This document shows positions 2,432 to 64,000 of a stretch of DNA of 64,000 nt, one piece after another. The DNA lies in the IMG/VR virus record IMGVR_UViG_3300047320_000346. The stretch is one strand, 5' to 3'. How positions within the stretch are numbered: position 1 is the stretch's first letter; each line of letters begins with the position of its first letter. The notes beneath the pieces are model-generated. The model was not told the DNA's origin and made no database searches. It saw only the letters and a program-made list of their open reading frames with translations. The position numbers and the translations under genes were made by a program. This DNA comes from an uncultured virus (IMG/VR IMGVR_UViG_3300047320_000346). Its lineage: Duplodnaviria; Heunggongvirae; Uroviricota; Caudoviricetes.

Positions 2432-2437
2432 CTATAC
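2432..2437 (+). promoter_or_regulatory. CTATAC motif (first of about 20 gene-proximal copies; see findings)
   Basis: 38 nt upstream of ATG 2476; the same hexamer recurs at similar spacing before many genes. Confidence 0.65.
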
Positions 2438-2475
2438 GGGAGCGTAGTTCAACCCACATAGAGAGGAAACAGACC

Positions 2476-2829
2476 ATGTCCAATGCATCGACTGTCACGA
2501 CCGCACTCCGCAAGGAATCGCTGGAAAAGGAAATCGCTTTTCGCGAAAGAACCGGCCTGCTTCAGGTGTCCTTCGTGCAACTCAAGGCGATGATTCGCGA
2601 AATCGGCTATCGCTTCGACCCGCACATGACGTGCAAGAGTCTCGCCCGATACATGACGGGCACGCGCGCGGGCGAATCCTACCCGAGCAACGCTCTGTAT
2701 CCGCGTCAAATCGACGACGGCTTGTCATATGCCAACGTCGGCGCGCGCCGCGATGCCAATTTCGACCGGCTGAAGGAAATCCGAAACACGTACTACTCGG
2801 TGCATGGCGGCTATATCTACGAATGGTAA
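2476..2829 (+). CDS. Hypothetical protein
   Basis: Strong SD GAGAGGA, CTATAC upstream, terminator-like hairpin downstream. Confidence 0.75.
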   Translation: MSNASTVTTALRKESLEKEIAFRERTGLLQVSFVQLKAMIREIGYRFDPHMTCKSLARYMTGTRAGESYPSNALYPRQIDDGLSYANVGARRDANFDRLKEIRNTYYSVHGGYIYEW

Positions 2830-2948
2830 TCGCCACGCGTCACAGTTGACGCAATTCAACTCCCTGAGCCTCCCTACGCTTTGCGTCTGGAGGCTCTCGT
2901 TTTCTTCTATACGGATTGCATTAGTTCAACATTCATAGAGGAAACATC

Positions 2949-3638
2949 ATGCTGACAACCAACACCGACACGCTTTTCACGCTCATCGCATCGGCCGACG
3001 CAGACGGCAAAATCGTCTTCGTCGCACCCGAGCGGCGCACCTTGCGTTCGAAAGACCACGCGCGTGACTATCTTGCCGCCATGTTCATGGAATTGCCAAC
3101 CGCAAATCTGCGGCTGGACGCGGTCAAGAAAGCCATCACGGAAATCGACCTCGAGATGACGCCCGTCGAATCCGGCACGATGCTCACGCTGAATCTGGCG
3201 AAGCTTCTGCTGCTGCCGGCGGTCACTCCCTCTGTCGAGCTTGTCGAGTTCCGCGAGATGCTGCTCGAGATGAAGACGTTTTTCGAGGCACACGAAACTG
3301 AGCGCTGCTCCATTCAAATCTGCAACGAACGGGACCGCAACCGGCGTCGATACGGCTCCATCGCGTGCCGCGTGCCCGCCGGCGAAAACAAGATGAAACC
3401 CGACGAAGACGCGACCGCGCGGCTGAAATTGCGCATCGAAGCAAGCCCGGCACTGAGCCACTGGTTGCGGCAGGTAGCGTTGACCCTCGGGAAAATCGGC
3501 CCGTGGTCGTGGACACACATCCGCGAAAACGAGCTTTTCGGTTATGCCCAGGGCCCGTACCGTTCGTGGCGCGCCAAACAGCCGCGTGTCGAGTCCACAC
3601 CTGACGCAGGTCCGTTCAAAGAACTGAAGCTCGATTAA
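2949..3638 (+). CDS. Hypothetical protein
   Basis: SD AGAGGA, CTATAC upstream, terminator downstream. Confidence 0.75.
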   Translation: MLTTNTDTLFTLIASADADGKIVFVAPERRTLRSKDHARDYLAAMFMELPTANLRLDAVKKAITEIDLEMTPVESGTMLTLNLAKLLLLPAVTPSVELVEFREMLLEMKTFFEAHETERCSIQICNERDRNRRRYGSIACRVPAGENKMKPDEDATARLKLRIEASPALSHWLRQVALTLGKIGPWSWTHIRENELFGYAQGPYRSWRAKQPRVESTPDAGPFKELKLD

Positions 3639-4249: not shown

Positions 4250-4627
4250 ATGAGCATCGTCTGGGAACAACGCATCCGTCACATCGACCGGCCCGTCAAC
4301 CGGGTGGTTCATCGCAGGTTGCTGCGTAGCCTTGACCGCCAGGCTCTCAAGGCCGCTGTCAAGGCGCAGCGTGGCGCACCTTCGGGCAACCACTCGTCGC
4401 ACTATGTCGTGACGATGGCCCGTCTCGCGATACGCCGGGCGACGCGCCGCGAGAACGACAGCGTTGCGGACGCGAACAGGCTCCTCTGGCTGCGGCTCAG
4501 GGAACGCATGCTCGAGAAAAAACGAACGGCCCGGCATGCGGCCGCCAGACGTCGACGCCCGCGGGTCACCGACACCGGTATCAATCAGGCCCGACGCAAC
4601 CGCGAATACCTCCGCGAAAACGCATAG
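4250..4627 (+). CDS. Very basic (Arg-rich) hypothetical protein
   Basis: ORF with GGGAG upstream; no family recognised. Confidence 0.45.
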   Translation: MSIVWEQRIRHIDRPVNRVVHRRLLRSLDRQALKAAVKAQRGAPSGNHSSHYVVTMARLAIRRATRRENDSVADANRLLWLRLRERMLEKKRTARHAAARRRRPRVTDTGINQARRNREYLRENA

Positions 4628-4646
4628 GGTTCAGGCCAGGCTTCGC

Positions 4647-4970
4647 TCAGCGGGGCGCTTGGTCGTGCAGCCCGCGCCCGCGAAGCTCTGCATCGAGCCG
4701 GCGCAGGTCCATGTACAAAACGGTCGAGTCGAAAAGGAATCGCTGCAGGCTGTACAACGCGGCCGCGCCCGTGCCCACGGCTAGCAATCCGCCCAGCGGC
4801 AGGTCCAGCACCAGTGCGACGGCCGGCGCCAACGCCCCAAACGCCATCGCGCTTGCAATCACGCCCACCATGCGCTGCCGAAGCGAAAGCAGGCGGCTCT
4901 TGCGCGCGCGCTCACGCATGTAGGAGTCGGTCATCATCACGCCGTAGGCGCGGGCATGTCGGTCGGTCAC
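4647..4970 (-). CDS. Hypothetical membrane protein
   Basis: Two hydrophobic segments; CTATAC (4998-5003, minus) upstream. Confidence 0.6.
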   Translation of the reverse strand: MTDRHARAYGVMMTDSYMRERARKSRLLSLRQRMVGVIASAMAFGALAPAVALVLDLPLGGLLAVGTGAAALYSLQRFLFDSTVLYMDLRRLDAELRGRGLHDQAPR

Positions 4971-5084
4971 GGGAAGCCCCCAGAATTGAAGTCATCTGTA
5001 TAGCGCGAACCGCAGCCCCACAGTCGCCGCTCCTCCCTCGAGCTATACGACAGGAGGAACCGTTCAATCAATGGAGGAAAAAAG

Positions 5085-6137
5085 ATGACGACTGACTGGC
5101 AGAAAATCCGTGAACAACGCATCGACTACGACCTGTCCGCGCCGGACGAGAAGGGCCCCACGCGCATCCTCGAGGTGCTCGCGGGACTCGGATTGAAGGG
5201 CAGAGAGCAGGAGGGACTCGTCCTGCTTGAGCAGGACGGCGCGGCCCGTGCGCAATGCATCGCGCTTGTCTCGGCCAGCGAGCTGTTTTCCTGGGATGAC
5301 GCACAAGAGACGCGCGTTGCCCGGCGCCGTGTAGGCCGCTTCAAGGGCATGACCGACCTGTTTTCGCACAAGGAGGCAACCTGGCGGCAGGCTATTGGTG
5401 AATTCTGCGGCCCGCACGCGTACCTGTATCTCATCGACCTCAATAGCTGGCTTGACGACCCGGGCAACCAGGACGTGGCCGCCATGCTCGAACACGACGA
5501 GCGCGGTGTGCTCAAGACAGTGTGTCGCCCGGTCGAGTTGCAAGCGTTGCTCGGCAACCCGTTTGGCGCGGTACGGCCATCCGGGCACGATGGCACGCCG
5601 GAGTTTGAAGTCCAGCGCATGGACCGGCATTCGTTCGAGCCTGCCGTGCGCGATTTTGGCGCTACGGTCACGCATCCGTTCATTCGGGTGCCGGATACCG
5701 AGTGCTGGCTCGAGCGGCTTGTTGCGCATCCGGAGAGCGAACGCATAACGGCCCTGGCCAACGCGCTCGTGCACCGAGTGATGGGCAACTCGCACGAGCT
5801 GTGCGTGCGTCGTCCGGAGGTGCTCATCACGCGCTCTGGCCGCACCTCGGCGATGCCCTGGTTCGTTCTGGGCATGGGCGAGCAGTACGGTCTGGCCTAC
5901 TGCATCTACCTGGCGCTAGCCTTTGACGAGGCCTCGCCGGAAATGTGGTTGGGCATTACGGATGCGCTGAACTATCTGGACCTGCCGCACTACGTACGGG
6001 CGATGGATATGCTGCGCGACTTTGTTGTCGTCACCGGCGCCAACGCGTACGTGAAGACCAATAAGGAGCAGTATCAGCAGCTCGCCAAAACCAAGCTGGA
6101 AAAAGCCGTCTCATGCCGTAAGGCAATGAACGGCTGA
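5085..6137 (+). CDS. Hypothetical protein with a degenerate ABC/Rad50-like signature region at the C-terminus
   Basis: LGMGEQ...YLALA...WLGITDALNYLD resembles LSGGE...LAL...hhhhDEP..LD; no Walker A seen. Confidence 0.6.
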   Translation: MTTDWQKIREQRIDYDLSAPDEKGPTRILEVLAGLGLKGREQEGLVLLEQDGAARAQCIALVSASELFSWDDAQETRVARRRVGRFKGMTDLFSHKEATWRQAIGEFCGPHAYLYLIDLNSWLDDPGNQDVAAMLEHDERGVLKTVCRPVELQALLGNPFGAVRPSGHDGTPEFEVQRMDRHSFEPAVRDFGATVTHPFIRVPDTECWLERLVAHPESERITALANALVHRVMGNSHELCVRRPEVLITRSGRTSAMPWFVLGMGEQYGLAYCIYLALAFDEASPEMWLGITDALNYLDLPHYVRAMDMLRDFVVVTGANAYVKTNKEQYQQLAKTKLEKAVSCRKAMNG

Positions 6138-6214
6138 TGCAAAATCTGTAACTCAGCCGCGGCCTTTATGGTCGCGGCTTTTCCATTCTGGTGGTGACCG
6201 AAGGCGGGCAGGGC

Positions 6215-6523
6215 TCAGGCGCGCGAGACCGAGTTGGCAGCCGCTTCCCGCACGCGCAGGTCCATGGCGAGCGCCGGCCAGTCGAGCAGGAATACCCCAA
6301 GGCAGTAAAGGCCGACCAGCGCGGCCGCCAGCCCGTACCAGCCTGTGTCTGGCGCCTGCAGCTCCCACACGCAGGCCGGGCCGAACAGGCCGACCAGCAA
6401 CACGTGAGCCACAATGGAAAAGACGCGTCGCTCCAGCGTCTTTTGACGGACTGCTTCAGCGCGTGCCCGATAAAGCGGTTCGCGCATCAGCCGCAGGTAC
6501 AGCTCAGGAATCTGGTCACCCAT
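6215..6523 (-). CDS. Hypothetical membrane protein
   Basis: SD AAGGAG; two TM segments; variant TTATACG motif upstream. Confidence 0.65.
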   Translation of the reverse strand: MGDQIPELYLRLMREPLYRARAEAVRQKTLERRVFSIVAHVLLVGLFGPACVWELQAPDTGWYGLAAALVGLYCLGVFLLDWPALAMDLRVREAAANSVSRA

Positions 6524-6721
6524 GGGCAACTCCTTGTTATGACGAATTCCAGCGTATAACGCTGCGAGGTTAACATCCATCGGGGAAATGCCCGAGCGCC
6601 ACGCTGGCGACAGAACAACACATACCGTACAATAAGCCTTTGTCAACTTCCGGGCAAGTTCGGGCCTTCATATTTCCCTATACGACTCCAGAGGAAACAA
6701 CACATCTGGAGGTAGGTAGGT

Positions 6722-7357
6722 ATGGAAATCATTGGTTATCACGGCACGAAGGTCGATTTCGACACGTTCGCGCCGGGCAACTCGTCAATTGACCGCATGG
6801 TCGGACCACACTTTTCGAAGACACCGGCGCTCGCCAACAAGTTTGCCCTGAGAAATCCGGGGCGAAAAGGTAACGGCAAGCGCACGGGCGGCCGGGTCAT
6901 ACCGGTGAAGCTCGCTGGCGACATCTACACGGTGGACCAGCATTTCTCGCGATTTCCCGGAGCGATTTGCAAGCTCACGCACCCTGAACTGGGGTACTGG
7001 GTCGGACTTGTCGCCACGGATTATCACGCGCTCGCGCACGACATCGGAAAGGTGGTGCTCAACGAACGCCCCGAGCTGCTCGCGCGCTATGCGGCAGCAA
7101 AGGGGTTCAAGACCGCTCAGGCCTGTATGGCTGAGCTGGAGCAGACCCGTCACTGGCAGCTCGTGAGCATGCTCGCGAGCGAGGGTGAGCAGGGTGCGCT
7201 CAAGGAGGACATCGCCCTGGCGTACCGCGACATCCTGGTGGCCCGAGGTTTCGGCGTCATCGAGTACGTGAATACCGCGAAGAAGGAACAGGTGGGCGAC
7301 CTCGCCGACCAGACCTGCTACATCGCGCTGACGAAGCCCCGTTTTTATTTTGAATGA
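6722..7357 (+). CDS. Putative ADP-ribosyltransferase (ART-PolyVal-like)
   Basis: YHGT..F..F, GPHFS...A..FA, GRVIPVKL, L..RGF..I.Y.N, then YIAL: the layout of polyvalent-protein ART domains. Confidence 0.65.
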   Translation: MEIIGYHGTKVDFDTFAPGNSSIDRMVGPHFSKTPALANKFALRNPGRKGNGKRTGGRVIPVKLAGDIYTVDQHFSRFPGAICKLTHPELGYWVGLVATDYHALAHDIGKVVLNERPELLARYAAAKGFKTAQACMAELEQTRHWQLVSMLASEGEQGALKEDIALAYRDILVARGFGVIEYVNTAKKEQVGDLADQTCYIALTKPRFYFE

Positions 7358-7378
7358 CAACCCCCGGAGGATAGAAAG

Positions 7379-7954
7379 ATGGCTGCTAAAGACAAACTGA
7401 AAGACCCGGCACACGTGGCCGAGTTGCACGAACGCCGCGAAGCTTTGCAGCGTCAGGTGAAGCTCGATGCGATGAGTAATGCAGAGCGTGCGCAGTATTA
7501 CGCGCTGCGCGTTGCGATTCACACGTGTCTCGCGGCTCGCGACGACCTCACGCAGCCTGAAAAGGGGCTCGTGCGCTCGTGTCGCGAGTTGCTCAAGGCA
7601 GTGGAGCCGTTGACCGATGGGCAGCAGAAGTGGCTGCTCGACATCGCCCAACGCACCAACGGGGAAGTGGCTAGTGATATTGACCGGCTGGTCCACCGGT
7701 GGGCCAACGGCAATGCTGACGGTGAACACCCCACGTATCCGCGAGAGAAATGGCCGCTGGCCGGCGTCAAGGGCCTTAAGCCCACGGCGTACTGGCACTG
7801 GGCGCTCAGCGAACTCGTGCGCAACGGCGGTGAAGAAGAGCACTGTGATGAATGCGGCGCTCAGCTCGATGAAGAAGGCTGGGATGGTCTGTGCGGCAAC
7901 TGCGCGGACCGCGTTGAAAGCGGCGAGGTGACTCGCGAACAGCTGGCCATGTGA
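7379..7954 (+). CDS. Hypothetical protein with C-terminal CxxC...CxxC; paralog of the next gene
   Basis: LVRSC...PLTDGQQKWLLDIA...ANG...GEH..YPR..WPLA...YW.W shared with 7982-8425. Confidence 0.8.
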   Translation: MAAKDKLKDPAHVAELHERREALQRQVKLDAMSNAERAQYYALRVAIHTCLAARDDLTQPEKGLVRSCRELLKAVEPLTDGQQKWLLDIAQRTNGEVASDIDRLVHRWANGNADGEHPTYPREKWPLAGVKGLKPTAYWHWALSELVRNGGEEEHCDECGAQLDEEGWDGLCGNCADRVESGEVTREQLAM

Positions 7955-7981
7955 CCAAAATACCGATAACGGAGGAAGAAA

Positions 7982-8425
7982 ATGCCTATTGATTTCGCTC
8001 GACTGAATGACCCGGCTGTGCGCGAGCAGATGCGTGTTGAACGCGAGGCAGCGGAGGCGAAGGCCGAAGCTCACGAGAAGATGTTGCGGCGCGAGCTCAA
8101 CATCTGTCTCGAATCAAGCGAGACGCTCGAGCAAAACGAGCGCAGTCTCGTTCGCAACTGCCAGCAGCGTCTGAACACGTACCTGCCACTGTCGGACAAG
8201 CAGGAAAAGTGGATGCTCGACATCGCCAAACGTGTGCGCAAAGACCTTGAGGTGAAGGTCCAGGCGCTCATCGTCAAGCATGCGAACGGCGACGAACTCG
8301 GCGAACACCTGGCTTATCCGCGCAGCAACTGGCCTCTGGCCGAGGAATGCGCTGATGCCCCGCGGGACTACTGGTTCTGGGTACTGCGGTTGGTCGACGT
8401 TCTGGGTGACGAGGTGACAGCGTGA
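7982..8425 (+). CDS. Hypothetical protein, tandem paralog of 7379-7954
   Basis: SD GGAGG; shared motifs as above. Confidence 0.8.
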   Translation: MPIDFARLNDPAVREQMRVEREAAEAKAEAHEKMLRRELNICLESSETLEQNERSLVRNCQQRLNTYLPLSDKQEKWMLDIAKRVRKDLEVKVQALIVKHANGDELGEHLAYPRSNWPLAEECADAPRDYWFWVLRLVDVLGDEVTA

Positions 8426-8787
8426 GCTTTGTTGCTGAAGTCTGGCTTCAATGGCCCATCTGCCGAGGCGCAACGATGTTCCGCGCAACGGCACGCACGC
8501 GTGCCCGCGCGATTGTCAAAGCAAAGTTGCACGCCGTGACACTCGACATGATTCTGCCCCACACGTATCCGGGCGAAGACTGGAGCGGCCGCCGCGTGAG
8601 CTACTCGTACGACTATGGCATCCTGTTTGGTGTGCGCGAGCTCACCGAGCAGGAGCAGAGTGAAGGCGTCAAGGAAATCTGGGCGACGAAGCTGCCGGGT
8701 CATGCAGGCCACGCGGGCGAAAATGCAAGGCTGCATCCTGTCGTTGGGGATGTGTCACTGCTCACGGGTTCGGGTCTCAGGATATAA
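8422..8787 (+). CDS. Hypothetical protein
   Basis: GTGA overlap with the preceding stop. Confidence 0.6.
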   Translation: MSFVAEVWLQWPICRGATMFRATARTRARAIVKAKLHAVTLDMILPHTYPGEDWSGRRVSYSYDYGILFGVRELTEQEQSEGVKEIWATKLPGHAGHAGENARLHPVVGDVSLLTGSGLRI

Positions 8788-8797
8788 CGGAGAGTTC

Positions 8798-9169
8798 ATG
8801 TCAAAGTTGTCAGGGTATCCCGAAGAACAGCAACCGCGCATCAAGGCGACGCTCACTCGACTTCTTGAAAGTAAGGTCGACAACGGCACGGTTGAAGAGA
8901 CCGACGCAGGCATCAAGGCGGCAATGCACCAGGCTTTCATGGAGGCTTGCCAGGTCGTTGTCACCTTAGACGCGTGCATGTGCCGGCTGTCGCACTATCC
9001 GGAAGACAGCCAGCAACGCATCCGTTCAGTTGCCACTCAGCTCATCGAAGGTCGAATCGCCAGCGGCAAGGTCGCCGGCACCGAGCAAGCAGTTCAGGCT
9101 GCCACTCGCGTAGCTGTCGACGATGCACGTCAGACCGTCATCGCAGTCGAAGAGTATCTCTGCGGCTGA
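8798..9169 (+). CDS. Hypothetical protein built of two ~60-aa repeats
   Basis: KLSGYPEEQQPRI... and RLSHYPEDSQQRI... halves. Confidence 0.75.
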   Translation: MSKLSGYPEEQQPRIKATLTRLLESKVDNGTVEETDAGIKAAMHQAFMEACQVVVTLDACMCRLSHYPEDSQQRIRSVATQLIEGRIASGKVAGTEQAVQAATRVAVDDARQTVIAVEEYLCG

Positions 9170-9185
9170 CACGTAGCACCCTCAC

Positions 9186-9218
9186 CACCTCCACGCGCAG
9201 CACTGCCGTGGAGGTTTT
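9186..9218 (+). terminator. Intrinsic terminator, copy 2 of the 33-bp repeat
   Basis: Same stem and near-identical loop as 3669-3701. Confidence 0.8.
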
Positions 9219-9280
9219 CTTGTGGCGCGCCGCCTGGCGTTCAGCTATACGCTTGCAGGCAAACACAAAAAGGAGTGGCC

Positions 9281-9481
9281 ATGAGTACGCAATCGCGCGA
9301 GGCAGCAACACACAAGGAAAAGCTGCAGGCACTGCTTGCTGACTTTGGTGTTGAATGCATCAACAACGAACTGGGTCATCAAATCATCTGCCGCGGGGAC
9401 CAGCGGGTCACCGGCATGACGATTTTCAACTTCGACAAGGACGGAAAATTCTTGTCGATGCGCGGCCAACAGGAAGACTGA
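9281..9481 (+). CDS. Small hypothetical protein
   Basis: SD AAGGAG; CTATAC at 9245. Confidence 0.65.
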   Translation: MSTQSREAATHKEKLQALLADFGVECINNELGHQIICRGDQRVTGMTIFNFDKDGKFLSMRGQQED

Positions 9482-9482
9482 G

Positions 9483-9803
9483 ATGCACGCACCGGAACAA
9501 CGTCAGATGCGTATCCAGCAGCTTGACTGTGAGCTGGCTGAACTACGTCACCGCGCGGCCGGGCTCCAGGAAGAGCTCGAGGCGCTGCGCAGTGCGGAAA
9601 CTGCCGAAGACCGCGCTTTGTTGGCGCGGAAATGGTGGGAAGCGTTGAGGGTAGGTCTCATCGTCACGCTTGAGGAGTTCGAGCGGCTTCTCGACGAATG
9701 TCGCGAACTGAAGCATCACAGCCCTTCCGCGGCATGTGTGAAATTTCGAGACCGGCTCAATGTCTCGATGCCGAACGCTGCGAAATACGTTCGTATGCTC
9801 TAG
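9483..9803 (+). CDS. Hypothetical protein with N-terminal coiled coil
   Basis: Abuts the previous gene; heptad-like N-terminus. Confidence 0.65.
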   Translation: MHAPEQRQMRIQQLDCELAELRHRAAGLQEELEALRSAETAEDRALLARKWWEALRVGLIVTLEEFERLLDECRELKHHSPSAACVKFRDRLNVSMPNAAKYVRML

Positions 9804-9909
9804 GCATAACTCCCCTCTCAAACGGCACCGCGCGGCCGTTTTCTTTTCGCGAGCACAAAAGAAAAACGCCTGCTCCGAAGAACAGGCGCTCGTGTAACTG
9901 CCAGGCATG

Positions 9910-11844
9910 TCAGTAGGCGACAATCACGACGCCAGTGCCGCCACCCCCGCGGCCACCCCCGCCACCAGCGCCACCGCCACCGCCAGTGTTAGGTGTCCCG
10001 CCTACGCCCGACACGGAAAGCGTGCCACCAATACCGCCGCCACCGATGCCGCCTGGCGCCTGAGTAACCTTATCGACGTAGGTGCCACCCCCGCCGCCAC
10101 CGCCGTAGCAGGTTGAGGTGCCGGTGATGTCAGAGCAGACGCCCGCGCCACCCTTGCCGCCGAACGTCGCGTCCGGCGCGCCGCCGGCAGCAGTTGCCCC
10201 GCCACCACCCGGACCCTGAAGCGTCGTAGTCATGACGCCGCCTGCCGGGAAGCCGTTGCCGGATGCGCCTGTCGTATAGCCCGAGATGCCCCCGACCGCC
10301 TGGAGCGAGCCAAAAGCAGAAGGCAGTCCGTCCTGGCCTGCGTCGGGGCCGATGTCACCTCCCGCGCCAACCGTCACCGGAACTGTGGAGTTCGGCGTGA
10401 CGGCGAAGCTGACGTTGTAGCGCACCTGTCCACCGCCACCGCCGATACCGCCCAACCCGCCACTCACCGTGCCGCCAAGTGCCTCGCTTCCGCCGCCGCC
10501 GCCAACCACGAGCAGCTTTACGCTGGTGAGCTTCGCCGGGATGGTCCACGTCGTGCTTGCCGTGAACGTCTGGACGTTGGTAACGGCCGAGCCCGTGAGC
10601 GGCACCGTGAGGGCCCCGCTCGTCGCGCCGGTGATGCTCAGGTTGCCCGCGTAGCTGGTGACGCCCGTCGGATAGAACGAGACCGTCGCGGTGCACGAGC
10701 CCTTCGCGGGAATCGTCGAGCAGCCGCTGACCGTGAAGTTTGAGGAGCTGGAAGCGAGCGCCAGCGTTCCCGCCGCGTCGCCAGCGTTGGTTAGCGTGAC
10801 GGTCTGGGTGGCCGTCGTGTAGTCGCTGACCGACGAGAAATTGAGCGACGGCACGGACGCCGTGATAAGCGAGCTCGCCGCGCTATTGAGCGTGTACGAC
10901 TGCTGGCCAACGTAACCCTTGTAGTTCGCCCTGAGCGTGAATTTCTGAGCGCCGGACGCGGTTGGCGTCCCAGTAAGCAGCCCATTCGCGTTGAGTACGA
11001 GCCCCGCTGGGAGCGCATCAACGACAGCCCAGCTCGTGCTTGCTGCTTGGAAGCTCGGGTCGTTACTGCTCAGCAGCGAGCGGAAACCGTAGCCGGCGTA
11101 CGGCAGACCCTGCGACGCCGCAGGCAGCTCCGTGCTGCCGAGCGACACACTAATGACCTGCGTGACCACCTGATAGGTCTGCTCGCCGCTGACGCCCTTG
11201 TACGTCGCGCGCGCCGTAACACTGCCGGTGCCGCTTGCCGTCGGCGTGCCGACGATGACCCCGTTATTCGCGAGATAGAGTCCTGGGGGCAGCGTACTGC
11301 CCCAAACCGACCACGTAACCCCGGTGCCGGTGTACGCCGCGTCCCCCGAAACGGTCAAACGACCGTGCAGGTCGTAGCTGTAGGACTGTCCGACCAGCCC
11401 CAGCGGCGGCGTGGCGCTCGCGAGCGTTACTGTGAGGGCGGCCGTGTAAATCGAGTAGCTCTGTTGGCCGGCCTTGCTCTTGTAGCTGGCCATGACCTGG
11501 AACGTCGACGAGCCGCCAGCGCTCGGCGTGCCGGTAAGCGTGCCGTCGGCATTGAGCGTCAGGCCTGCGGGCAGGCTTCCAGCCGCGACGCTCCAGCGAA
11601 CGCCATAACCGGTGAAACCGGTGTCCCCCGTGACGGAAAGCAGCGACTTGAAGTCGAATCCCGCATACGCCTGGCCGACCTGGGCCGCCGGCAGACTGTA
11701 GCCGGCGAGCGATACGCCAATGTTGCTGGCCGCAGTGTGACTGGGTACCGGAACAACGACGTAATAGTCGGCGGCGAATGCCGGGAGGCTTGCCGCGAGC
11801 GTTGCGCTTAGAAGCGACGCTTTAAAGAGATGTGAGAGGCGCAT
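9910..11844 (-). CDS. Secreted putative-Ig (He_PIG/cadherin-like) repeat protein with a further Ig-like domain and Gly-rich C-terminal domain
   Basis: Signal peptide, YYVVVPVP, three W...G.LP.GL.L...G.L.GTPT repeats, VTLTNAG...C..IPAKGSCT, GGGGG-rich tail. Confidence 0.85.
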   Translation of the reverse strand: MRLSHLFKASLLSATLAASLPAFAADYYVVVPVPSHTAASNIGVSLAGYSLPAAQVGQAYAGFDFKSLLSVTGDTGFTGYGVRWSVAAGSLPAGLTLNADGTLTGTPSAGGSSTFQVMASYKSKAGQQSYSIYTAALTVTLASATPPLGLVGQSYSYDLHGRLTVSGDAAYTGTGVTWSVWGSTLPPGLYLANNGVIVGTPTASGTGSVTARATYKGVSGEQTYQVVTQVISVSLGSTELPAASQGLPYAGYGFRSLLSSNDPSFQAASTSWAVVDALPAGLVLNANGLLTGTPTASGAQKFTLRANYKGYVGQQSYTLNSAASSLITASVPSLNFSSVSDYTTATQTVTLTNAGDAAGTLALASSSSNFTVSGCSTIPAKGSCTATVSFYPTGVTSYAGNLSITGATSGALTVPLTGSAVTNVQTFTASTTWTIPAKLTSVKLLVVGGGGGSEALGGTVSGGLGGIGGGGGQVRYNVSFAVTPNSTVPVTVGAGGDIGPDAGQDGLPSAFGSLQAVGGISGYTTGASGNGFPAGGVMTTTLQGPGGGGATAAGGAPDATFGGKGGAGVCSDITGTSTCYGGGGGGGTYVDKVTQAPGGIGGGGIGGTLSVSGVGGTPNTGGGGGAGGGGGRGGGGTGVVIVAY

Positions 11845-11958
11845 GGGGACACTGAATGGGGGCATCAGTGGTATAGCTCAAAACACACTTGGCGAACCGA
11901 TGTGCGCAAGAAAAAACCCCGCAAAAAGCGGGGTCTGAGGTGATGCGAAAACGGTGTA

Positions 11959-12453: not shown

Positions 12454-12593
12454 AGCTTCCTCGCTGGTTGATTGTTGCCACGTTCGGTATAGCCCCGCGG
12501 CGCGAATCAACCGACACCTCCAATGCACGTCATTTTGCAGCATTTCGAGCTATACGGCTATGTGGAAATAGCTGCCCATTGGAGGCAAACATT

Positions 12594-12974: not shown

Positions 12975-12987
12975 AGCTACTAAACTC

Positions 12988-13015
12988 AAAATCGCTCCCT
13001 GACTGGAGCGATTTT
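12988..13015. terminator. Bidirectional intrinsic terminator
   Basis: AAAATCGCTCC-CTGACT-GGAGCGATTTT between convergent genes. Confidence 0.8.
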
Positions 13016-13031
13016 CTATTTTGAGCGTGCT

Positions 13032-13280: not shown

Positions 13281-13439
13281 GGTGAATGAAAACTCCGTAC
13301 TGGATTGCACGAGATGAGCGTTGGGCTCGCGTAATTCGGTATAGAGCAGGTGTGTTTGGCTGAAGAGCCGCATGGCGCCTGGCTCTTAAAGAAAAAGCCC
13401 AGCACGGATGCTGGGCTTGAGAGCTTGAATCTGGATTCG

Positions 13440-13940: not shown

Positions 13941-14002
13941 GATGTGTCCTCTGGGCTATTCACTCAAGTTTAAAGGTTCCTACCTGAGCGTATAGCCCGC
14001 GG

Positions 14003-17512: not shown

Positions 17513-17625
17513 GTGCGATTACTCCAGAATGGATGACTAAAATTAGTATACCATGCAATCAGTAATCGACGAGTCGGCCGACGGGCTATACGGAATCAGG
17601 CCAACTCACTTATGAAAGGAACACC

Positions 17626-18469: not shown

Positions 18470-18530
18470 CATTCGGGCGGCCGCGGCCTATACGGGACTG
18501 CAGGCCAACTACTATTTTGCGAGGAATCTC

Positions 18531-21554: not shown

Positions 21555-21732
21555 TTGGCGGTATACCTTGGGGTCTGCAGTGGTATAGCGCCGGGAACCC
21601 TGCACTGACTGGATGCAGGATGGAAAAAGACCGCGTTTTTTGTGCTCCACGGTCGAAGCAGAATACTCAAAAAGAGGGTCTACGCTCCCTCACCGATACA
21701 CCCAGACGGCATCGTTCACCGGCCTTGCCGGC

Positions 21733-22377: not shown

Positions 22378-22419
22378 TCCCTCGTTCTATTTTGTGTTGT
22401 TGTTTTACCGCCGAATGCC

Positions 22420-25104: not shown

Positions 25105-25225
25105 GTGTGTAAGCTCCTTTCTATGGGGGAATACGGCGATACCTGCGTAGCGCCAGCAAACCGTATAGCGAGAAATGGGGGTGATGCCAGACGCAGAACG
25201 CGCCTGGCCTACAACGATGAACCGC

Positions 25226-28884: not shown

Positions 28885-29086
28885 GGTGCGAATTACACTT
28901 ACGAAAGGTTATGAATTGGACGCAAGTAGTATACCACAATATACGCACTTTTCACGACAAACACGGAAGAGTTAACTTTCCGTGTCAAGCCGCAACGTTC
29001 AGTATAGGAGTCGGGCGCTGGCAGAATCGTGCGACGCAGGCACAATTGCGTTGAGGGTAGCGCTGGTAGGGAATACAGTGCGACGG

Positions 29087-33483: not shown

Positions 33484-33745
33484 GTTCGTGTCCTGCTGTA
33501 ATTTACGATGATGCAAGTATATCATAAAACACCAACATTACGGAGCCTTTTTCGCAAAATACGACAAAGTGCAAACGGACTTCAGCGGGTAACCTCGCCG
33601 TCACTACTAGCTCCAGCCGCGCATTTCTTTTTATTCCACGCTAGTTCGCGCTAAATCAAAATCGGGCTAACCTGCGTGGAAATTTGCCAATTCTGGCATT
33701 TGTGACTATAGTGACACCTCGCTTATTGACTCGCCTGGAGGTCCT

Positions 33746-44468: not shown

Positions 44469-44471
44469 CCT

Positions 44472-45833: not shown

Positions 45834-45859
45834 ACGAGTCCTTGGAGAATGCGCTATTT

Positions 45860-52263: not shown

Positions 52264-52446
52264 ATTATTTGTAGACGCCCCCCGTGCCGTTCCATAAGAG
52301 TTCCACTCCGGCTTAACGCGTCAGCCTGACCTTGCGGCGTATAGCCGGGCGTCCCGATGGTCACGCAGCGAGCGGGGCACGCCTGCCCTCGCACACATGA
52401 AAACCTGTTGTGCTTGAGGCCAGTTTTCGCAAATCCAAGCAGCGTG

Positions 52447-52474
52447 TTGACATTACACCATTTATCGCTATACT
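52447..52474 (+). promoter_or_regulatory. Sigma70-like promoter
   Basis: TTGACA-16-TATACT; TGTTGAC repeated just downstream. Confidence 0.7.
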
Positions 52475-54488: not shown

Positions 54489-54613
54489 GTGTGCCTCTCC
54501 TTTTAGTTGGACTGCTAGCGTATAGCTCAACTGAGTCAAAAGGCAGAAAAGAAGCCCCTTCCAAGGGCTTCAAAGGACCTTGGAGGGGGACTTTCAGACC
54601 CTACGAAGGGTAG

Positions 54614-57324: not shown

Positions 57325-58926
57325 ATGCGCAAGAAAGTCGTCATTGGATTTTTGGGCACGAAGCTGGACTCGGGGCTGACCGAGAAGCGCTGGGAGCGCT
57401 GGCGCCCGACGGTGGCCCTCTTCGGCCATGATAAGTTCGTGCCGGACGCTATCGAGTTGCTGACATTCAATGGCGACTACCAGCCACTCGTCGAGCGCGT
57501 GACGTCCGACATCCAGTCCCTGAAGCCTGAGGCGCGTGTGACCACGCACAGCCTGCCGGTGACGGACGCATGGAGCTTCCAGCACGTCTACGCGGCGCTG
57601 CATGAATTCGCGCGCGGATATACGTTTCGCGACGACACCGACTACTACGTGCACCTCACGACCGGTACGCACGTGGCCCAGATTTGCCTATTCCTGCTGA
57701 CGGAATCCCGATACCTGCCGGCGCGTATCGTCGAAACGTTGTTGCCCAAGCGTGACTCGGACGCCGAGGCCTGGCGCGGCCGCCTGGAAGTCATCGACCT
57801 GGACCTGTCAAAATATGACCAGCTCGCCAAGCGATTCCAGAAGGAAAGCGTCGAGAGCCAGGACCTGCTCAAGGGCGGCATCATCACGAAGAACGCTGCG
57901 TTCAACGCACTCATCGGCCGGCTCGAACGGGTGGCGCTCAAGTCGACCGCCCCGCTGCTGCTGACCGGGCCGACTGGCGCGGGTAAGAGCGCACTCGCTC
58001 AGCGTGTGTACGAGCTGCGCGCGCGCCGCCATCTGGTCGAAGGCGCATTCGTCGAAGTGAATTGCGCGACGCTGCGCGGAGACAACGCAATGTCGGCGCT
58101 GTTTGGCCACAAGAAGGGTGCGTTCACTGGCGCGGTCTCGGACCGTCCGGGCCTGCTGCGCGCGGCCGACAACGGCACGCTCTTTCTCGACGAAATCGGC
58201 GAGCTGGGTCTCGATGAGCAGGCGATGCTGCTGCGCGCGCTCGAAGACAAGCGATTCCTGCCAATGGGTTCGGACAAAGAAGTGACGAGCGAATTTCAGC
58301 TACTGGCTGGCACCAACCGGGACCTCTCGGCAGAAGTGGCGGCCGGACGCTTCCGTGCGGACCTGCTCGCGCGCATAAACGTATGGCAGTTCAAGCTGCC
58401 TGGTCTTGCCGAACGGCCGGAAGACGTCGAGCCCAATCTCGATTTCGAACTGGAACGCGTGGCGCGTGAGCTGGGTGTGCACATCTCCATTTCGCGTGAA
58501 GCGCGGGAGTCGTTCCTCGAGTTTGCACTCGAGGCTTCGTGGCCGGGCAACTTCCGTGACTTGGCTGCCGCGGTAACCCGTATGGCGACGCTCGCCGAAG
58601 GCGGTCGTATCAGCGAAGCCGACGTCGAGTTCGAAGTAGAGCAGCTGCGTGACGCGTGGGGTTCATCGGGCAACCAGGAGTTGAACCGCAATCCGCGCAT
58701 CGAGGCGATTCTCGCTGAGCGCTCGCTCGACCGGTTCGAGCGTGTGCAGCTCGCTGATGTGCTGCAGGTGGTCGAAGCCACGGACTCGATGGCTGAAGCG
58801 GGTCGCGTGCTCTACGCCGAGTCGCGCGCGTTGAAGGCTAACCCGAACGATTCGGACCGCATACGCAAGTTTCTGGCGCGGTTCGACATGGACTACGCCG
58901 AAACGAAGAAATTGTTGGCCGCTTGA
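57325..58926 (+). CDS. rtcR: Sigma54-dependent RNA-repair activator RtcR (CARF + AAA+)
   Basis: VVIGFLGT.LD...RW.RWRPTV, HLTTGTHVAQI, GPTGAGKS, GAFTGA, FLDEIG, WPGNFR, NDSDR.RK.L. Confidence 0.96.
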   Translation: MRKKVVIGFLGTKLDSGLTEKRWERWRPTVALFGHDKFVPDAIELLTFNGDYQPLVERVTSDIQSLKPEARVTTHSLPVTDAWSFQHVYAALHEFARGYTFRDDTDYYVHLTTGTHVAQICLFLLTESRYLPARIVETLLPKRDSDAEAWRGRLEVIDLDLSKYDQLAKRFQKESVESQDLLKGGIITKNAAFNALIGRLERVALKSTAPLLLTGPTGAGKSALAQRVYELRARRHLVEGAFVEVNCATLRGDNAMSALFGHKKGAFTGAVSDRPGLLRAADNGTLFLDEIGELGLDEQAMLLRALEDKRFLPMGSDKEVTSEFQLLAGTNRDLSAEVAAGRFRADLLARINVWQFKLPGLAERPEDVEPNLDFELERVARELGVHISISREARESFLEFALEASWPGNFRDLAAAVTRMATLAEGGRISEADVEFEVEQLRDAWGSSGNQELNRNPRIEAILAERSLDRFERVQLADVLQVVEATDSMAEAGRVLYAESRALKANPNDSDRIRKFLARFDMDYAETKKLLAA

Positions 58927-60709: not shown

Positions 60710-62416
60710 TCATTTGCCCCAGAGGTAGTAGGTTGTCGGAGCGCTGAATGCCGGAAAGCCCTGGCCGCCCTGAATCCCCAGCCCGATGGCGAAGTCGTCG
60801 CAGCCGTTGAGCGTCGCGGTCGCAGTCTCATCCACGGCCCATCCATATTTCGCACCGGCACAGACACCATTGCTCGGCGTATATTCCCCAAAATTGAAAC
60901 CGAAGCGCGCCTGCTTGATGAGGGTGCCTCCGCCCAGGTCTTTCGGGTAGTTCGTCGCATAGCTCGACCAGTTTGGCGAGACTTGTGGAACGCCAGCAAC
61001 GTCGCCGCTGACGACGGTCATTTTCGCATCCGCCATCGCCGACATTGCTGTCTGGGTGCTTACCGCTGTGGTTCTGAGCGTCGATTCATTTGCAGCCTGC
61101 AGCACGAGCGCGGAGACCGGTACTTTGCTGAACGCGCTCGAGACGTAGTTGCCGTCAGCCATACTGGCTCCCGTCGGGTCGTTCAGGGTCGTGCCTGTCC
61201 AGTATGCGGTGCCCCAGCGCAGCGTGCTCGAATCGTTCTGCGCCTGCTTCATGAGAAGCATCCATCCGCCGCCGTTCGTGGTCTGGTTGCAGTAGACGTC
61301 CATGGTCGAGCCACCAACGGCAACACGGTAGACGCCATTGCCCGTCGCACCGGAATAGTCGTACGGCGCGCTCGGCGCCAGGTACGCCTGGCAACTCGCC
61401 GCATACGTGCCGTCCGACCATGCGCGATAGCTTCCGTTGTTCGCCACGTTCGCATTGACCGACATGCTGTAGGCCTTGCTGCCCGAGCTGAGCAGATACG
61501 CAGCCTTCACCCCGAACGACGCGGTCCCGACCGTTGTGGGCGAGCCAGAAATTACGCCATCGCCCGTGAGCGACAACCCGCCGGGCAGCGCGCCGCTCGA
61601 GAGCGACCACGTCACGCCGGCGCCATTGCCGGCGTACGCGGTGTCACCGGTGACCTGGAGGTTCTGCTTGAGGTCGTAGCTGTACGCGGTGCCCGCCGTG
61701 AGCATGGGGAACGACACATCCGAGAGCGCCACGGTAACGGTCGCAACAACCAACTGATACGTGCGCTGGCCGGCGCGGTTCATGTACCTGGCCTGCACGG
61801 CAACAGGGAACGTTCCGCCAGCCGTAGGTGTCCCGCTAAGCGTGCCGTTTGCATTGAGCTGCACGCCCGCGGGCAAAGGGCCGCTCATAAGCGACCACGT
61901 CACCTGCGCGGGGGTGTATTGCGGGTCGCCGGCCACCTGCAGATTCTGCTTCAGGTCATAGCTGTACGGTGTGCCCTGCACGCCCGGCGGGAGCGTCGCG
62001 CTCGCGAGTCCCACGACGATGTCGGCAATCATCACCTGGTAAGCCTGCTGACCTGCTTTGGTCTTGTACGCCGCCAGCACCTGGAAGCTCGATGTCGCGG
62101 CGGCAGTCGGCGTGCCGCTGAGTTTGCCGTCGGCGCTCAGGGAGAGCCCCGCCGGCAGCGCGCCACTGGCCACGGACCAGCGAACACTGCTCTGACTGTA
62201 CGACGGGTCTCCGAGCACCTGGAGCACCGAATTGAAATCGAAGCCTCCATACGCGCGTCCGACGACGCCCGTCGGAAGCGAATATGCGTTGAGCGTGACG
62301 AGGATATTGCCCGCCGTGGCCGAACGGCTGGGAACCGGCACAACAACAAAATAGTCGGAGGCAAAGGTGGAAAAGCTTGCGGCCGCGAGCAATGCGGCAA
62401 TGACGGTCTTTTTCAT
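60710..62416 (-). CDS. Secreted putative-Ig repeat protein with fibrinogen-like C-terminal domain
   Basis: Signal peptide, YFVVVPVP, three Ig repeats, VYCNQTTNGGGWMLLMK...YLWGK. Confidence 0.88.
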   Translation of the reverse strand: MKKTVIAALLAAASFSTFASDYFVVVPVPSRSATAGNILVTLNAYSLPTGVVGRAYGGFDFNSVLQVLGDPSYSQSSVRWSVASGALPAGLSLSADGKLSGTPTAAATSSFQVLAAYKTKAGQQAYQVMIADIVVGLASATLPPGVQGTPYSYDLKQNLQVAGDPQYTPAQVTWSLMSGPLPAGVQLNANGTLSGTPTAGGTFPVAVQARYMNRAGQRTYQLVVATVTVALSDVSFPMLTAGTAYSYDLKQNLQVTGDTAYAGNGAGVTWSLSSGALPGGLSLTGDGVISGSPTTVGTASFGVKAAYLLSSGSKAYSMSVNANVANNGSYRAWSDGTYAASCQAYLAPSAPYDYSGATGNGVYRVAVGGSTMDVYCNQTTNGGGWMLLMKQAQNDSSTLRWGTAYWTGTTLNDPTGASMADGNYVSSAFSKVPVSALVLQAANESTLRTTAVSTQTAMSAMADAKMTVVSGDVAGVPQVSPNWSSYATNYPKDLGGGTLIKQARFGFNFGEYTPSNGVCAGAKYGWAVDETATATLNGCDDFAIGLGIQGGQGFPAFSAPTTYYLWGK

Positions 62417-62498
62417 GGAAAGCGTGGGTGGCGTTGTCGTTGCAATGTATAGCTTCGACCGGCGTAACCAGCTGCGGCATGCCGGTCACATCGGCCGG

Positions 62499-63941
62499 TT
62501 ATTTGGCCCAGAGGTACAGCGTCGCCGGTTGCCAGGCTCCCGGATTGTTGTTCATCCAGGACTGCCCATAATGGGAGCCATAGCCCCCTAGGCCACCGCA
62601 CGCATCGTTGGACCCATTCAATGGGCTCGATGCCGGATTCTCATTGGACGACCATCCCCAGCGTGCGCCACAGGGCAAATCAGTGCCTGCGACGACGTCT
62701 ACAGTCTCCATGAAGTTGAATCCGAAGCGGGACTGGGTGATGACCGTCCCAGCCGGATAAGTCGTCGCGTGAATGAACCAGTCCGGGTCAACCTGAGGCA
62801 CGCCGTTGGCATCGTCGTAAAGGGTGCGGTTGGCGTCGCTGAACGCGACGAGCGGGGTCGACGCGTCGCGTGAATACGTCTTCACCGTCGACTCATTGGC
62901 CGCCTGCAGCAGGTACTGCGTTGCGCTCATTCGTGCAAACGTTGCTGATACGAAGTTGCCGTCGCTCATGTTCCGCCCGGCCGCAGTGTCGTTAAGCACC
63001 GCTCCGGTCGTCCAGTAGGTCGTATCCCCCTCGAGCGTGGCCCCGTCGCCCTGCGCCTGTTTCATCAGCAACGTCCATCCGCCGCCATTCGTCGTCTGGT
63101 TGCAATACACGTCCGTTGCCGCGCCGCTGACACTGATGCGATACACACCGTCACCGGTCGCTCCGGAATAGACGTAAGGCGCGCTCGGCGCCAGGTACGC
63201 CTGGCAGCTCGCCGCGTACGTGCCGTCCGACCATGCGCGATAGCTTCCGTTGTTCACGACGTTCGCTTGAACCGACAGGCTGTAATTCGCCGAGCTCGAA
63301 CCCTCCTGATAGCTCGCCTTGAGGGTGAAAGGAAAAGTTCCTGCTGCGGTTGGCGTTCCGGTGAGCTTTCCATCGGCGCCGAGCTGCACCCCGGCGGGCA
63401 ACGCACCGCCGCTCAGCGACCAGCCTACCAACGTCGGCGAGTATTGAGGGTCACCCGTAACCTGGAGATTCGGCTTCACGTCCCAGCTGTAGGCCGCTCC
63501 CGCCACGCCGCCGAGAAGGGTCGCCCCAGCCAGGCTCACGACAAGCTCCGCCACAAGCACCTGATAGCTTTGCTGGCCTGCCTTGGTCTTGTAGGCGGCC
63601 ATGACCTGAAAGCTCGATGATGCCGCCGCGGTCGGAGTGCCTGAGAGCTTTCCGTCCGCGCCAAGTAGGAGGCCCGCTGGCAATGTGCCCCCCACCACGG
63701 ACCAGCGAACACTTCCCGGCGTGTACGCGGGGTCACCGAGTACCTGCAAGACAGTGTTGAAGTCGAAGCCCCCATATGGGCGGCCGACAACGCCAGCCGC
63801 CAACGAATAGCCGTTGAGCGTGACGAGAATATTGCCCGAGCTCGCTGCCCGGTTTGGCACCGGAACGACGACGAAATAGTCGGCGGCGAAAGCAGAGAAA
63901 CTGGAGGCGGCTAGCAACGTCGCGAGAATGGACTTCTTCAT
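62499..63941 (-). CDS. Secreted putative-Ig repeat protein with fibrinogen-like C-terminal domain
   Basis: Signal peptide, YFVVVPVP, two Ig repeats, VYCNQTTNGGGWTLLMK...YLWAK. Confidence 0.88.
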   Translation of the reverse strand: MKKSILATLLAASSFSAFAADYFVVVPVPNRAASSGNILVTLNGYSLAAGVVGRPYGGFDFNTVLQVLGDPAYTPGSVRWSVVGGTLPAGLLLGADGKLSGTPTAAASSSFQVMAAYKTKAGQQSYQVLVAELVVSLAGATLLGGVAGAAYSWDVKPNLQVTGDPQYSPTLVGWSLSGGALPAGVQLGADGKLTGTPTAAGTFPFTLKASYQEGSSSANYSLSVQANVVNNGSYRAWSDGTYAASCQAYLAPSAPYVYSGATGDGVYRISVSGAATDVYCNQTTNGGGWTLLMKQAQGDGATLEGDTTYWTTGAVLNDTAAGRNMSDGNFVSATFARMSATQYLLQAANESTVKTYSRDASTPLVAFSDANRTLYDDANGVPQVDPDWFIHATTYPAGTVITQSRFGFNFMETVDVVAGTDLPCGARWGWSSNENPASSPLNGSNDACGGLGGYGSHYGQSWMNNNPGAWQPATLYLWAK

Positions 63942-64000
63942 TGAGTAGACGACTGGCAAGAAAGGGTATGCGATGTATAGAGAAATCTGCTTCAGCGAAT

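What the first reader, a model, noticed from the sequence alone, without database searches (positions are those of the whole stretch)
2432..63980. Candidate element-specific promoter class: oriented CTATAC hexamer before about 20 genes, with no -35
Seen: by eye I found 25 exact CTATAC/GTATAG copies. Twenty point towards a start codon 26-58 nt downstream, mostly 26-38 nt: plus strand 2432, 2907, 5043, 6678, 9245, 12550, 17586, 18488, 52468; minus strand 4998, 11871, 12487, 13339, 13990, 21583, 25163, 37771, 54520, 62447, 63975. Three more lie in intergenic DNA (29002, 51799, 52339) and only two lie deep in a CDS (10274, 30981). The next base is usually G, so the near-invariant -7 T of sigma70/sigmaS -10 boxes is missing (except 52468 and 29002), and I see no shared -35. 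Several copies directly follow an intrinsic terminator, and two pairs are back-to-back divergent (4998/5043, 12487/12550). All four Ig-repeat genes, the porin, the ART and the PemK-like gene carry it. Known: single short-element promoters are read by element-encoded machinery, e.g. T4 late TATAAATA by gp55 and the short motifs of phiKZ-like phage RNA polymerases. Inference: this replicon has its own sigma factor, RNA polymerase or activator, encoded outside the window, that runs a dedicated regulon. The raw count is not the evidence; position and strand bias are.
Basis: partly seen in the sequence, partly recalled or inferred. Interest (0 to 1): 0.88.

Follow-up and report, generated by a model that had tools for sequence, protein, structure and literature searches.

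The report
Private promoter signal of giant plasmids
A short DNA signal sits just before about a quarter of the genes in this stretch of a probable giant bacterial plasmid and in a distant relative, and probably marks a private class of gene switches that the host's usual machinery should read poorly; the protein that reads it was not found.

Summary
CTATAC occurs 27 times (reader: 25; shuffles 5.7). 24 of 27 copies are intergenic, and 20 of those 24 point at a start 20-62 nt away (null 10%).

The window looks like part of a roughly 0.5-0.7 Mb Burkholderiales megaplasmid. It carries two nearly exclusive promoter classes: ordinary sigma70 type (-7T, often TG or TTG), and class II, (G/C)-C-TATAC-(G/C/A), with no -35.

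In the complete, distantly related Variovorax megaplasmid pWDL1-1, the relaxed form CTAnAC[ACG] precedes 182 of 679 backbone gene calls but 2 of 134 in IS1071-bounded cargo. It precedes 0 of 254 calls in sampled Burkholderiales chromosomes and 0-2% in five other replicons.

So it is specific to this element family and most likely a -10 element. It matches the RpoS box except at -7, where T is depleted.

On pWDL1-1 I found no RNA polymerase, CarD, GcrA or gp55-like gene, and no backbone sigma70-family gene, but these searches would miss a gp55-level divergent factor. No start-site data exist here. Site 52468 is an ordinary sigma70 promoter.

The parts
2432..2438 (+). class II site CTATACG, 38 nt before ORF 2476-2829
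2907..2913 (+). class II site, 36 nt before ORF 2949-3638; 7 nt after the start of a terminator T tract
4997..5003 (-). class II site CTATACA, 27 nt before GTG of 4647-4970; divergent pair with 5043
5043..5049 (+). class II site, 36 nt before 350-aa ORF 5085-6137; the pWDL1-1 homologue has CTAGACG at about 31 nt
6678..6684 (+). class II site, 38 nt before 6722-7357 (weak ART-PolyVal hit)
9245..9251 (+). class II site, 30 nt before 9281-9481, after a terminator-like hairpin
11870..11876 (-). class II site CTATACC, 26 nt before He_PIG gene 9910-11844, after a terminator
12486..12492 (-). class II site, 33 nt before 11959-12453; divergent pair with 12550
12550..12556 (+). class II site, 38 nt before 12594-12974
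13338..13344 (-). class II site, 58 nt before 13032-13280, after a terminator
13989..13995 (-). class II site, 49 nt before 13440-13940; the pWDL1-1 homologue has CTACACG at about 29 nt
17586..17592 (+). class II site, 34 nt before 17626-18423; divergent from a class I promoter of 16889-17512
18488..18494 (+). class II site, 37 nt before 18531-18920, after a terminator
21582..21588 (-). class II site, 28 nt before He_PIG gene 19611-21554
25162..25168 (-). class II site, 58 nt before Gcw_chp porin-like gene 24343-25104; CTATACG kept at 51 nt in relative L149
37770..37776 (-). class II site, 37 nt before 37332-37733; kept at 38 nt in relative L147
51798..51804 (-). class II site, 85 nt before 51477-51713; divergent pair with 51861
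52338..52344 (-). class II-type site, 43 nt before a 33-codon ORF; target uncertain
54519..54525 (-). class II site, 31 nt before 54132-54488, after a terminator-like hairpin
62446..62452 (-). class II site CTATACA, 30 nt before He_PIG gene 60710-62416
63974..63980 (-). class II site CTATACA, 33 nt before He_PIG gene 62499-63941
52447..52474 (+). not class II: canonical sigma70 promoter TTGACA-16-TATACT before HTH gene 52505-52861
29001..29007 (-). CTATACT, intergenic, -7T; no assigned gene
10274..10279 (-). copy inside a CDS, probably chance (likewise 30981 and 45047)
33510..33524 (-). example of class I (TG-n-TATACT) before 33115-33483, kept in L147 and L149; other -7T sites precede the genes starting at 17512, 25513, 28869, 30326, 38886, 50487, 56098 and 59765
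   Evidence: end points approximate

Best explanation
The motif is the -10 element of a second promoter class used by a family of Burkholderiales megaplasmids: (G/C)-14 C-13 T-12 A-11 n A-9 C-8 (G>C>A)-7, strict TATAC in this element, TAnAC with an added T-16 in the Variovorax relative, and no -35. Host core RNA polymerase initiates about 5-7 nt downstream, but only with a plasmid-encoded specificity factor: either a sigma-like protein too divergent for current profiles (gp55-like logic, about 0.45) or an activator that lets a host sigma fire without -7T (CarD-like logic, about 0.25). Ordinary -7T sigma70 promoters (class I) drive a separate set, in pWDL1-1 largely DNA metabolism (parE, recA, radA, ligA, rnhA, recD, casA), which suggests a two-tier programme. 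Shown: position, orientation, element specificity, exclusivity with class I, conservation at some orthologues. Inferred: promoter function, numbering, start site, the factor and any order of expression.
For: Placement and strand. 15 of 21 class II sites face away from a divergent neighbour (8) or follow a hairpin plus T tract (7), so no upstream transcript covers them. In pWDL1-1 the class precedes 87 of 246 divergent and 105 of 294 spaced genes but 12 of 128 tightly packed ones. -13C goes with non-T at -7: 19:1 against 3:11 in the window, p 1e-5; 221:26 against 74:22 in pWDL1-1, p 0.005. Genes with both classes: 1 (19 class II, 13 class I) in the window; 3 (204, 23) in the pWDL1-1 backbone. 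T at -7 is 6% against 21% background, positions -40 to -30 are flat, and composition turns A/C-rich and G-poor about 8 nt downstream of the -7 base, after a purine-rich A-G-G. Backbone 182 of 679 against cargo 2 of 134, p 5e-14. Controls: 0 of 254 chromosomal gene calls from 20 genomes, 0 of 51 in the C. metallidurans chromid, 4 of 399, 0 of 46 and 1 of 41 in three other large plasmids, 1 of 76 in Methylibium RPME01. More than 90% of betaproteobacterial sigma70 promoters have -7T (PMC8407463); only T fits the sigma70 pocket and beta-proteobacteria lack CarD (PMC7703639).
Against: No reader was found on the complete relative by any of the searches. No transcript or start-site data. -13 to -8 equal the RpoS consensus (TCTATACTTAA, PMC3367168) and RpoS-like genes are present in the host-family genomes sampled, so a host sigma may be involved. 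Only 11 of 87 window proteins have a pWDL1-1 homologue, and the motif is shared at 2 of 4 motif-led ones, so the two elements need not share a reader. The coupling test in L147+L149 is not significant (4:2 against 3:8, p 0.16). The pWDL1-1 tRNA array shows no strand bias (5 against 5). No Burkholderia chromosome was tested for placement, and five betaproteobacterial chromosomal loci held 10 CTATAC against 4-6 expected, with positions not examined.
Confidence: 0.7

Rival explanations
1. Host RpoS (or RpoD) reads these sites unaided as weak or conditional promoters, and no plasmid factor is needed.
For: C-13 TATAC is the RpoS box except at -7 (PMC3367168). RpoS-like genes are in the sampled host genomes. 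No plasmid sigma was found. Betaproteobacterial promoters can lack a clear -35 (PMC8407463).
Against: The -7T-less form precedes 0 of 254 + 0 of 51 chromosomal or chromid genes, while CTAnACT precedes 1 and 2. It precedes 2 of 134 cargo genes in the same cell. T at -7 is depleted, not neutral. The AT-rich -6 to -4 of the RpoS consensus is absent.
Confidence: 0.15
2. The element encodes its own RNA polymerase (jumbo-phage two-barrel or T7 type).
For: Short single motifs are typical of such enzymes (recalled). The window's own replicon could not be searched beyond 64 kb.
Against: On pWDL1-1: no PF00562 hit (control rang in 14 of 14 genomes), no DFDGD-type motif in six frames, no PF00940 hit (no positive control). 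The motif has sigma70-family -10 geometry.
Confidence: 0.05
3. Not a promoter core but a binding site for a plasmid protein, on DNA (operator) or on RNA (processing or translation signal).
For: No expression data. No strand bias before tRNA genes. Several motif-led genes lack a clear Shine-Dalgarno.
Against: Sites after terminators and in divergent gaps. Strict orientation (184 sense against 23 antisense). Exclusive with, not overlapping, sigma70 promoters, so these genes have no other detected promoter. Distance to the start varies from 24 to 60 nt with a sharp lower limit.
Confidence: 0.08
4. The motif is the -12 box (TTGCW) of sigma54 promoters, driven by plasmid activators such as the RtcR in the window.
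For: T-n-G-C-T-A resembles TTGCW (recalled); RtcR at 57325-58926.
Against: GG ten bases before the GC in 0 of 12 window sites and 14 of 118 pWDL1-1 sites, which is about background.
Confidence: 0.02

Closest known systems
Phage T4 late promoters (TATAAATA, gp55 + gp33 + gp45)
   Same: One short conserved element near -10 marks an element-specific gene class read with host core polymerase (PMC1524935, passages).
   Different: Different sequence; a conjugative-type plasmid, not a lytic phage; no gp55 homologue found on pWDL1-1.
SigN (ZpdN) regulon of Bacillus subtilis plasmid pBS32
   Same: A plasmid-restricted promoter class absent from the chromosome; the sigma gene itself is opened from SigA promoters (PMC6751061, passages).
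   Different: SigN has detectable sigma homology and a -35 plus -10 consensus; here there is no -35, no detectable sigma, and about 200 sites.
RpoS-dependent promoters (TCTATACTTAA)
   Same: C-13 and TATAC are identical (PMC3367168, passages).
   Different: -7T is replaced by G, C or A; no TAA discriminator; not seen before the chromosomal genes sampled.
CarD-activated -7T-less promoters of Alphaproteobacteria
   Same: Loss of -7T across many promoters as a way to put them under one factor (PMC7703639, passages).
   Different: Here -7 prefers G and -13, -9 and -8 are fixed; the host class lacks CarD and none was found on the plasmid.
Variovorax tRNA-carrying megaplasmids pWDL1-1, pSRS16-1, pPBL-H6-1, pPBL-E5-1
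   Same: Best plasmid hits for the window's RNase R (44%); shared HDOD, RtcR, DsbG and hypothetical genes; same motif core. Described as a possible new plasmid group (PMC7313664, passages).
   Different: Distant (11 of 87 proteins match); -10 position free and T-16 added; the paper's main text has 0 occurrences of 'sigma' or 'RNA polymerase'.

Membership tests
Host sigma70 (RpoD) promoter | T-12 A-11 core | tested here: met
   All sites, under the assumed numbering.
Host sigma70 (RpoD) promoter | T at -7 | tested here: not met
   2 of 27 copies; 6% in pWDL1-1.
Host sigma70 (RpoD) promoter | -35 TTG at 16-18 nt, or TG extension | tested here: not met
   TTG in 0 of 18 and 7 of 198, against 6 of 16 and 19 of 54 for class I; T at -15 in 1 of 21.
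RpoS promoter | C-13 and TATAC | tested here: met
   consensus from PMC3367168.
RpoS promoter | T-7 and AT-rich -6 to -4 | tested here: not met
RpoS promoter | rpoS dependence | not testable with these tools
   Needs a mutant.
T4 late-type (gp55) promoter | single -10 element without -35 | tested here: met
   Flat logo from -40 to -30.
T4 late-type (gp55) promoter | gp55-family sigma on the element | tested here: inconclusive
   None on pWDL1-1, but the gp55 profile also failed to detect bacterial sigmas; the window's own replicon is not held.
Plasmid sigma regulon (SigN type) | motif restricted to the plasmid | tested here: met
   chromosome sample 322 kb plus 50 kb of chromid.
Plasmid sigma regulon (SigN type) | sigma70-family gene on the plasmid backbone | tested here: not met
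   on pWDL1-1; only an ECF-like gene in cargo.
CarD-dependent promoters | CarD available | tested here: not met
   No RID or C-terminal domain on pWDL1-1; absent from beta-proteobacteria per PMC7703639.
Element-encoded multi-subunit RNA polymerase | beta and beta' homologues with DxDGD | tested here: not met
   on pWDL1-1.
Sigma54 promoter | GG-N10-GC | tested here: not met
   0 of 12 and 14 of 118.
Any promoter | transcription start just downstream | not testable with these tools
   Needs start-site mapping.

The most novel reading that the evidence does not exclude
A family of 0.5-0.8 Mb Burkholderiales megaplasmids expresses a large part of its backbone from an orthogonal, -10-only promoter that avoids the -7T needed by host sigma factors, and reads it with host core polymerase plus a plasmid protein that has no detectable sequence likeness to sigma70, gp55, CarD or GcrA: a new class of bacterial initiation factor and a phage-like two-tier programme on a plasmid.
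Probability: 0.4. Interest if true: 0.85.

Novelty: new variant of a known kind. Interest (0 to 1): 0.62.

Why it matters
Large plasmids are usually taken to rely on host promoters. About 200 private promoter-like sites on one replicon would mean that backbone expression, including transfer and surface genes, is gated by one plasmid factor and kept apart from cargo and chromosome. That bears on plasmid cost, host range and silencing. The cultured Variovorax strains make it testable now: start-site mapping and a polymerase pull-down should confirm the class and name its reader, which could also give a compact orthogonal expression system for Betaproteobacteria.

Tried and rejected
No RNA holder was listed for window 4600-14100. 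No tRNA or Rfam hit in the window.

Closer complete relatives were not found. The genome-contig scan with RNase R gave only matches of 43% identity or less. Viral scans gave none or one weak hit. Two 400-genome family samples and one 4-genome genus search gave none with these queries; one search used the C-terminal part of the Ig protein, 5 genomes were not scored, and none of the three had a positive control. RepB, TraG and SecA of pWDL1-1 had close matches only in the four Variovorax plasmids.

Reader candidates rejected: (1) the ECF-like gene at pWDL1-1 525 kb, which lies in cargo and has no motif upstream; (2) WP_068677263, whose sigma-2.3-like stretch is not conserved in 19 aligned sequences and gave hhalign probability 0.1%; (3) P0127, class I-led, with one homologue and only weak DUF2863/TPR structural look-alikes of a poor model; (4) P0128, led by both classes, no Pfam hit and not followed further; (5) window ORF 5085-6137, no sigma-like atlas hit, best score 0.87.

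Screens: PHROGs covered 148 of 414 filtered pWDL1-1 proteins. hhalign covered 685 of 745, stopping before the gp55 control, and it missed the ECF control. The first sigma HMM held three wrong-frame rows, dropped. Annotation of pWDL1-1 was read except for 481-485 kb and 535-625 kb.

The consensus promoter scan found 3 sites in 1-20 kb against 4.4 by chance, so it was uninformative. Replication-oriented or DNA-uptake roles were set aside because orientation follows genes on both strands (12 plus, 15 minus).
Full report
Observation. Dinucleotide shuffles give 5.7 on average and never more than 11; an order-3 Markov model gives 13.7. I called genes with a codon and Shine-Dalgarno model that does not know the motif (87 calls). 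CTATAC is the top hexamer 20-62 nt upstream of starts: 19 sense and 0 antisense among 86 scorable genes. 24 of 27 copies are intergenic, and 20 of the 24 are placed and oriented correctly against a null of 9.9%; the twentieth is the site at the window edge. The 89 other anagrams average 0.9. These gene calls are my own and some starts are uncertain.

What the window is. No whole genome is held. Pfam on 66 ORFs gives RuvB, RNase R, HU, SLT, ClpP, HDOD, RNA ligase, HipA, Sir2, NADAR, RtcB, RtcR, a DsbG-like protein and four He_PIG proteins among many small unknowns, and no virion family. The closest HDOD homologues include proteins on contigs of 496-699 kb, several named Burkholderia ubonensis, B. 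multivorans or Paraburkholderia. Two metagenome loci, L147 and L149 (the latter on a 572-kb contig), are syntenic with the window. The best plasmid hits for RNase R are the 800-kb Variovorax megaplasmids. pWDL1-1 carries RepB, ParAB, F-type transfer genes, type IV pilus genes and a tRNA array (PMC7313664, passages). It is a distant relative: 11 of 87 window proteins match. That the window is a megaplasmid is inferred from these relatives.

Two promoter classes. Among TATA[A/C]N sites upstream of window genes, those with C at -13 lack T at -7 (19 to 1) and those without C mostly have it (11 to 3), p 1e-5. The second group often has TG or TTG upstream (TTG at -35 in 6 of 16, against 0 of 18 for class II) and is ordinary sigma70. 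Only one gene has both classes. Site 52468 is TTGACA-16-TATACT and belongs to the ordinary group. Of 21 class II sites with a clear target gene (the two -7T sites, three in-CDS sites and 52339 left out), 8 face away from a divergent neighbour and 7 follow a hairpin with a T tract. At 2907 the T tract starts 7 nt before the motif, so a -35 would fall in the hairpin. The same hairpin test also fired at two in-CDS copies, so it is not strict.

The relative. In 800 kb of pWDL1-1, analysed as forty 20-kb pieces, the top upstream hexamers are CTATAC (63 sense, 8 antisense), CTACAC (73, 5) and their overlaps, with CTAGAC (34, 5) and CTAAAC (26, 9) close behind. The logo of 209 sites, 5 of them with a mis-computed distance, reads T-16 (59%), G/C-14, CTAnAC, G-7 (55%, T 6%), nothing at -40 to -30, a weak A/G signal at -24 to -22, A at -2 (60%), then an A/C-rich, G-poor stretch. 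The start may therefore be 5-7 nt after -7; this is a guess from composition. The motif precedes 182 of 679 backbone gene calls and 2 of 134 between the IS1071 copies at 495 and 648 kb. It prefers unit-leading genes (192 of 540 against 12 of 128) and precedes traF, traN, the coupling protein, pilin-like and nucleotide-metabolism genes. Strong sigma70-type promoters precede 36 backbone genes, among them parE, recA, radA, ligA, rnhA, recD and casA. Orthologues keep the motif in four cases: two window-to-pWDL1-1 pairs of four testable, one in L147 and one in L149, where the flanks have diverged.

Controls. CTAnAC[ACG] precedes 0 of 254 gene calls in 322 kb from 20 genomes of the family of a Polaromonas genome, 0 of 51 in 50 kb of the C. 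metallidurans chromid, 4 of 399 in 340 kb of a Cupriavidus plasmid, 0 of 46 in 41 kb of pMPPla107 and 1 of 41 in 41 kb of a P. aeruginosa megaplasmid. CTAnAC precedes 1 of 76 in 50 kb of Methylibium RPME01. Against: no Burkholderia chromosome was tested; five betaproteobacterial chromosomal loci, one from an unpublished genome (G003), held 10 CTATAC against 4-6 expected and I did not examine their positions; the coupling test in L147+L149 was not significant; the tRNA array shows no strand bias.

Since the motif works, if it does, on pWDL1-1, its factor should be there or in the host. Family searches of the whole record found no sigma70 region 1.2, 2 or 3, seven sub-threshold region-4 hits, no RNAP beta, no T7-type polymerase (no positive control), no CarD, GcrA or gp55, and one ECF-like protein (E 6e-9, below cut-off) in a cargo cassette without the motif. 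Local HMMs, a PHROG scan of 148 of 414 candidates and an hhalign screen of 685 of 745 proteins added nothing. These negatives are weak for very divergent factors: a gp55 profile did not detect bacterial sigmas, and the region-2 screen missed the ECF-like control. Five candidates were examined and dropped.

Mechanism. More than 90% of betaproteobacterial sigma70 promoters have -7T, although B. cenocepacia promoters lack a clear -35 (PMC8407463, passages). Only T fits the -7 pocket; where -7T is widely missing CarD compensates, and beta-proteobacteria lack CarD (PMC7703639, passages). The class II core equals the RpoS box at -13 to -8 (PMC3367168, passages). A motif confined to the plasmid backbone, exclusive with sigma70 promoters and depleted of -7T is most simply a promoter kept silent until a plasmid factor is present. 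I put this at 0.7 (divergent sigma 0.45, activator of a host sigma 0.25), host RpoS or RpoD alone at 0.15, a non-promoter binding site at 0.08, an own polymerase at 0.05 and sigma54 at 0.02.

Known kin and novelty. It works like T4 late promoters (PMC1524935, passages) and like the SigN regulon of pBS32 (PMC6751061, passages), but no member of either family was found. Four literature searches (CTATAC + megaplasmid + promoter; megaplasmid + plasmid-encoded sigma factor + promoter motif; CTATACG + plasmid + promoter motif; Burkholderia megaplasmid terms) listed no paper that, by title or abstract, describes this class. The library lacks most subscription journals and I read no supplements, where start-site tables could bear on this. 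PMC9045368 was seen as passages (C. metallidurans -10 elements keep A-11 and T-7). New here are the whole-replicon count, the backbone-versus-cargo contrast, the exclusivity with class I and the negative search of a complete relative.

Verdict. Real and specific to the element family; probably a -10-only promoter class; reader unknown; new variant of a known kind; interest 0.62.

Noticed in passing
window 9910-11844, 19611-21554, 60710-62416, 62499-63941: Four secreted-looking He_PIG repeat proteins, at least three sharing an N-terminal (D)Y(Y/F)VVVPVP motif after the signal peptide, with differing C-terminal domains (glycine-rich or fibrinogen-like). All are class II-led at short distance (26-33 nt) and lack a clear Shine-Dalgarno.
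   Followed up: partly
window 54659-55882, 57325-58926, 40977-42080, 26398-28413: An RNA repair and decay set on one element: RtcB, RtcR, an RNA ligase and RNase R. RtcR next to DUF6283 is also seen on pWDL1-1.
   Followed up: no
window 44472-46729: HipA kinase with an upstream HTH gene and a small ORF between them; HipA is also in L149.
   Followed up: no
window 21733-23922 and 34912-36456: Response regulator plus HisKA_3 kinase, and an HDOD-GAF protein, conserved in L147 or L149; possible regulators of the element.
   Followed up: no
L050:1-2223 (pWDL1-1 518-526 kb): ECF-like sigma gene heading a cassette with a UvrD helicase and a ThiF protein, in the cargo region; it looks like a defence-type module.
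   Followed up: partly
L045:9328-10371 (pWDL1-1 729.3-730.4 kb): 347-aa unknown protein preceded by both a sigma70-type promoter and a class II site, the layout expected of an autoregulated activator; no Pfam hit.
   Followed up: partly
L108 (pMPPla107 948.5 kb): A CarD/TRCF RID hit in a 1138-aa frame, probably a plasmid-borne Mfd.
   Followed up: no
pWDL1-1 upstream regions: CTATAG (palindromic) and GCTAAA are also enriched upstream of genes, so the class may be wider than CTAnAC.
   Followed up: no
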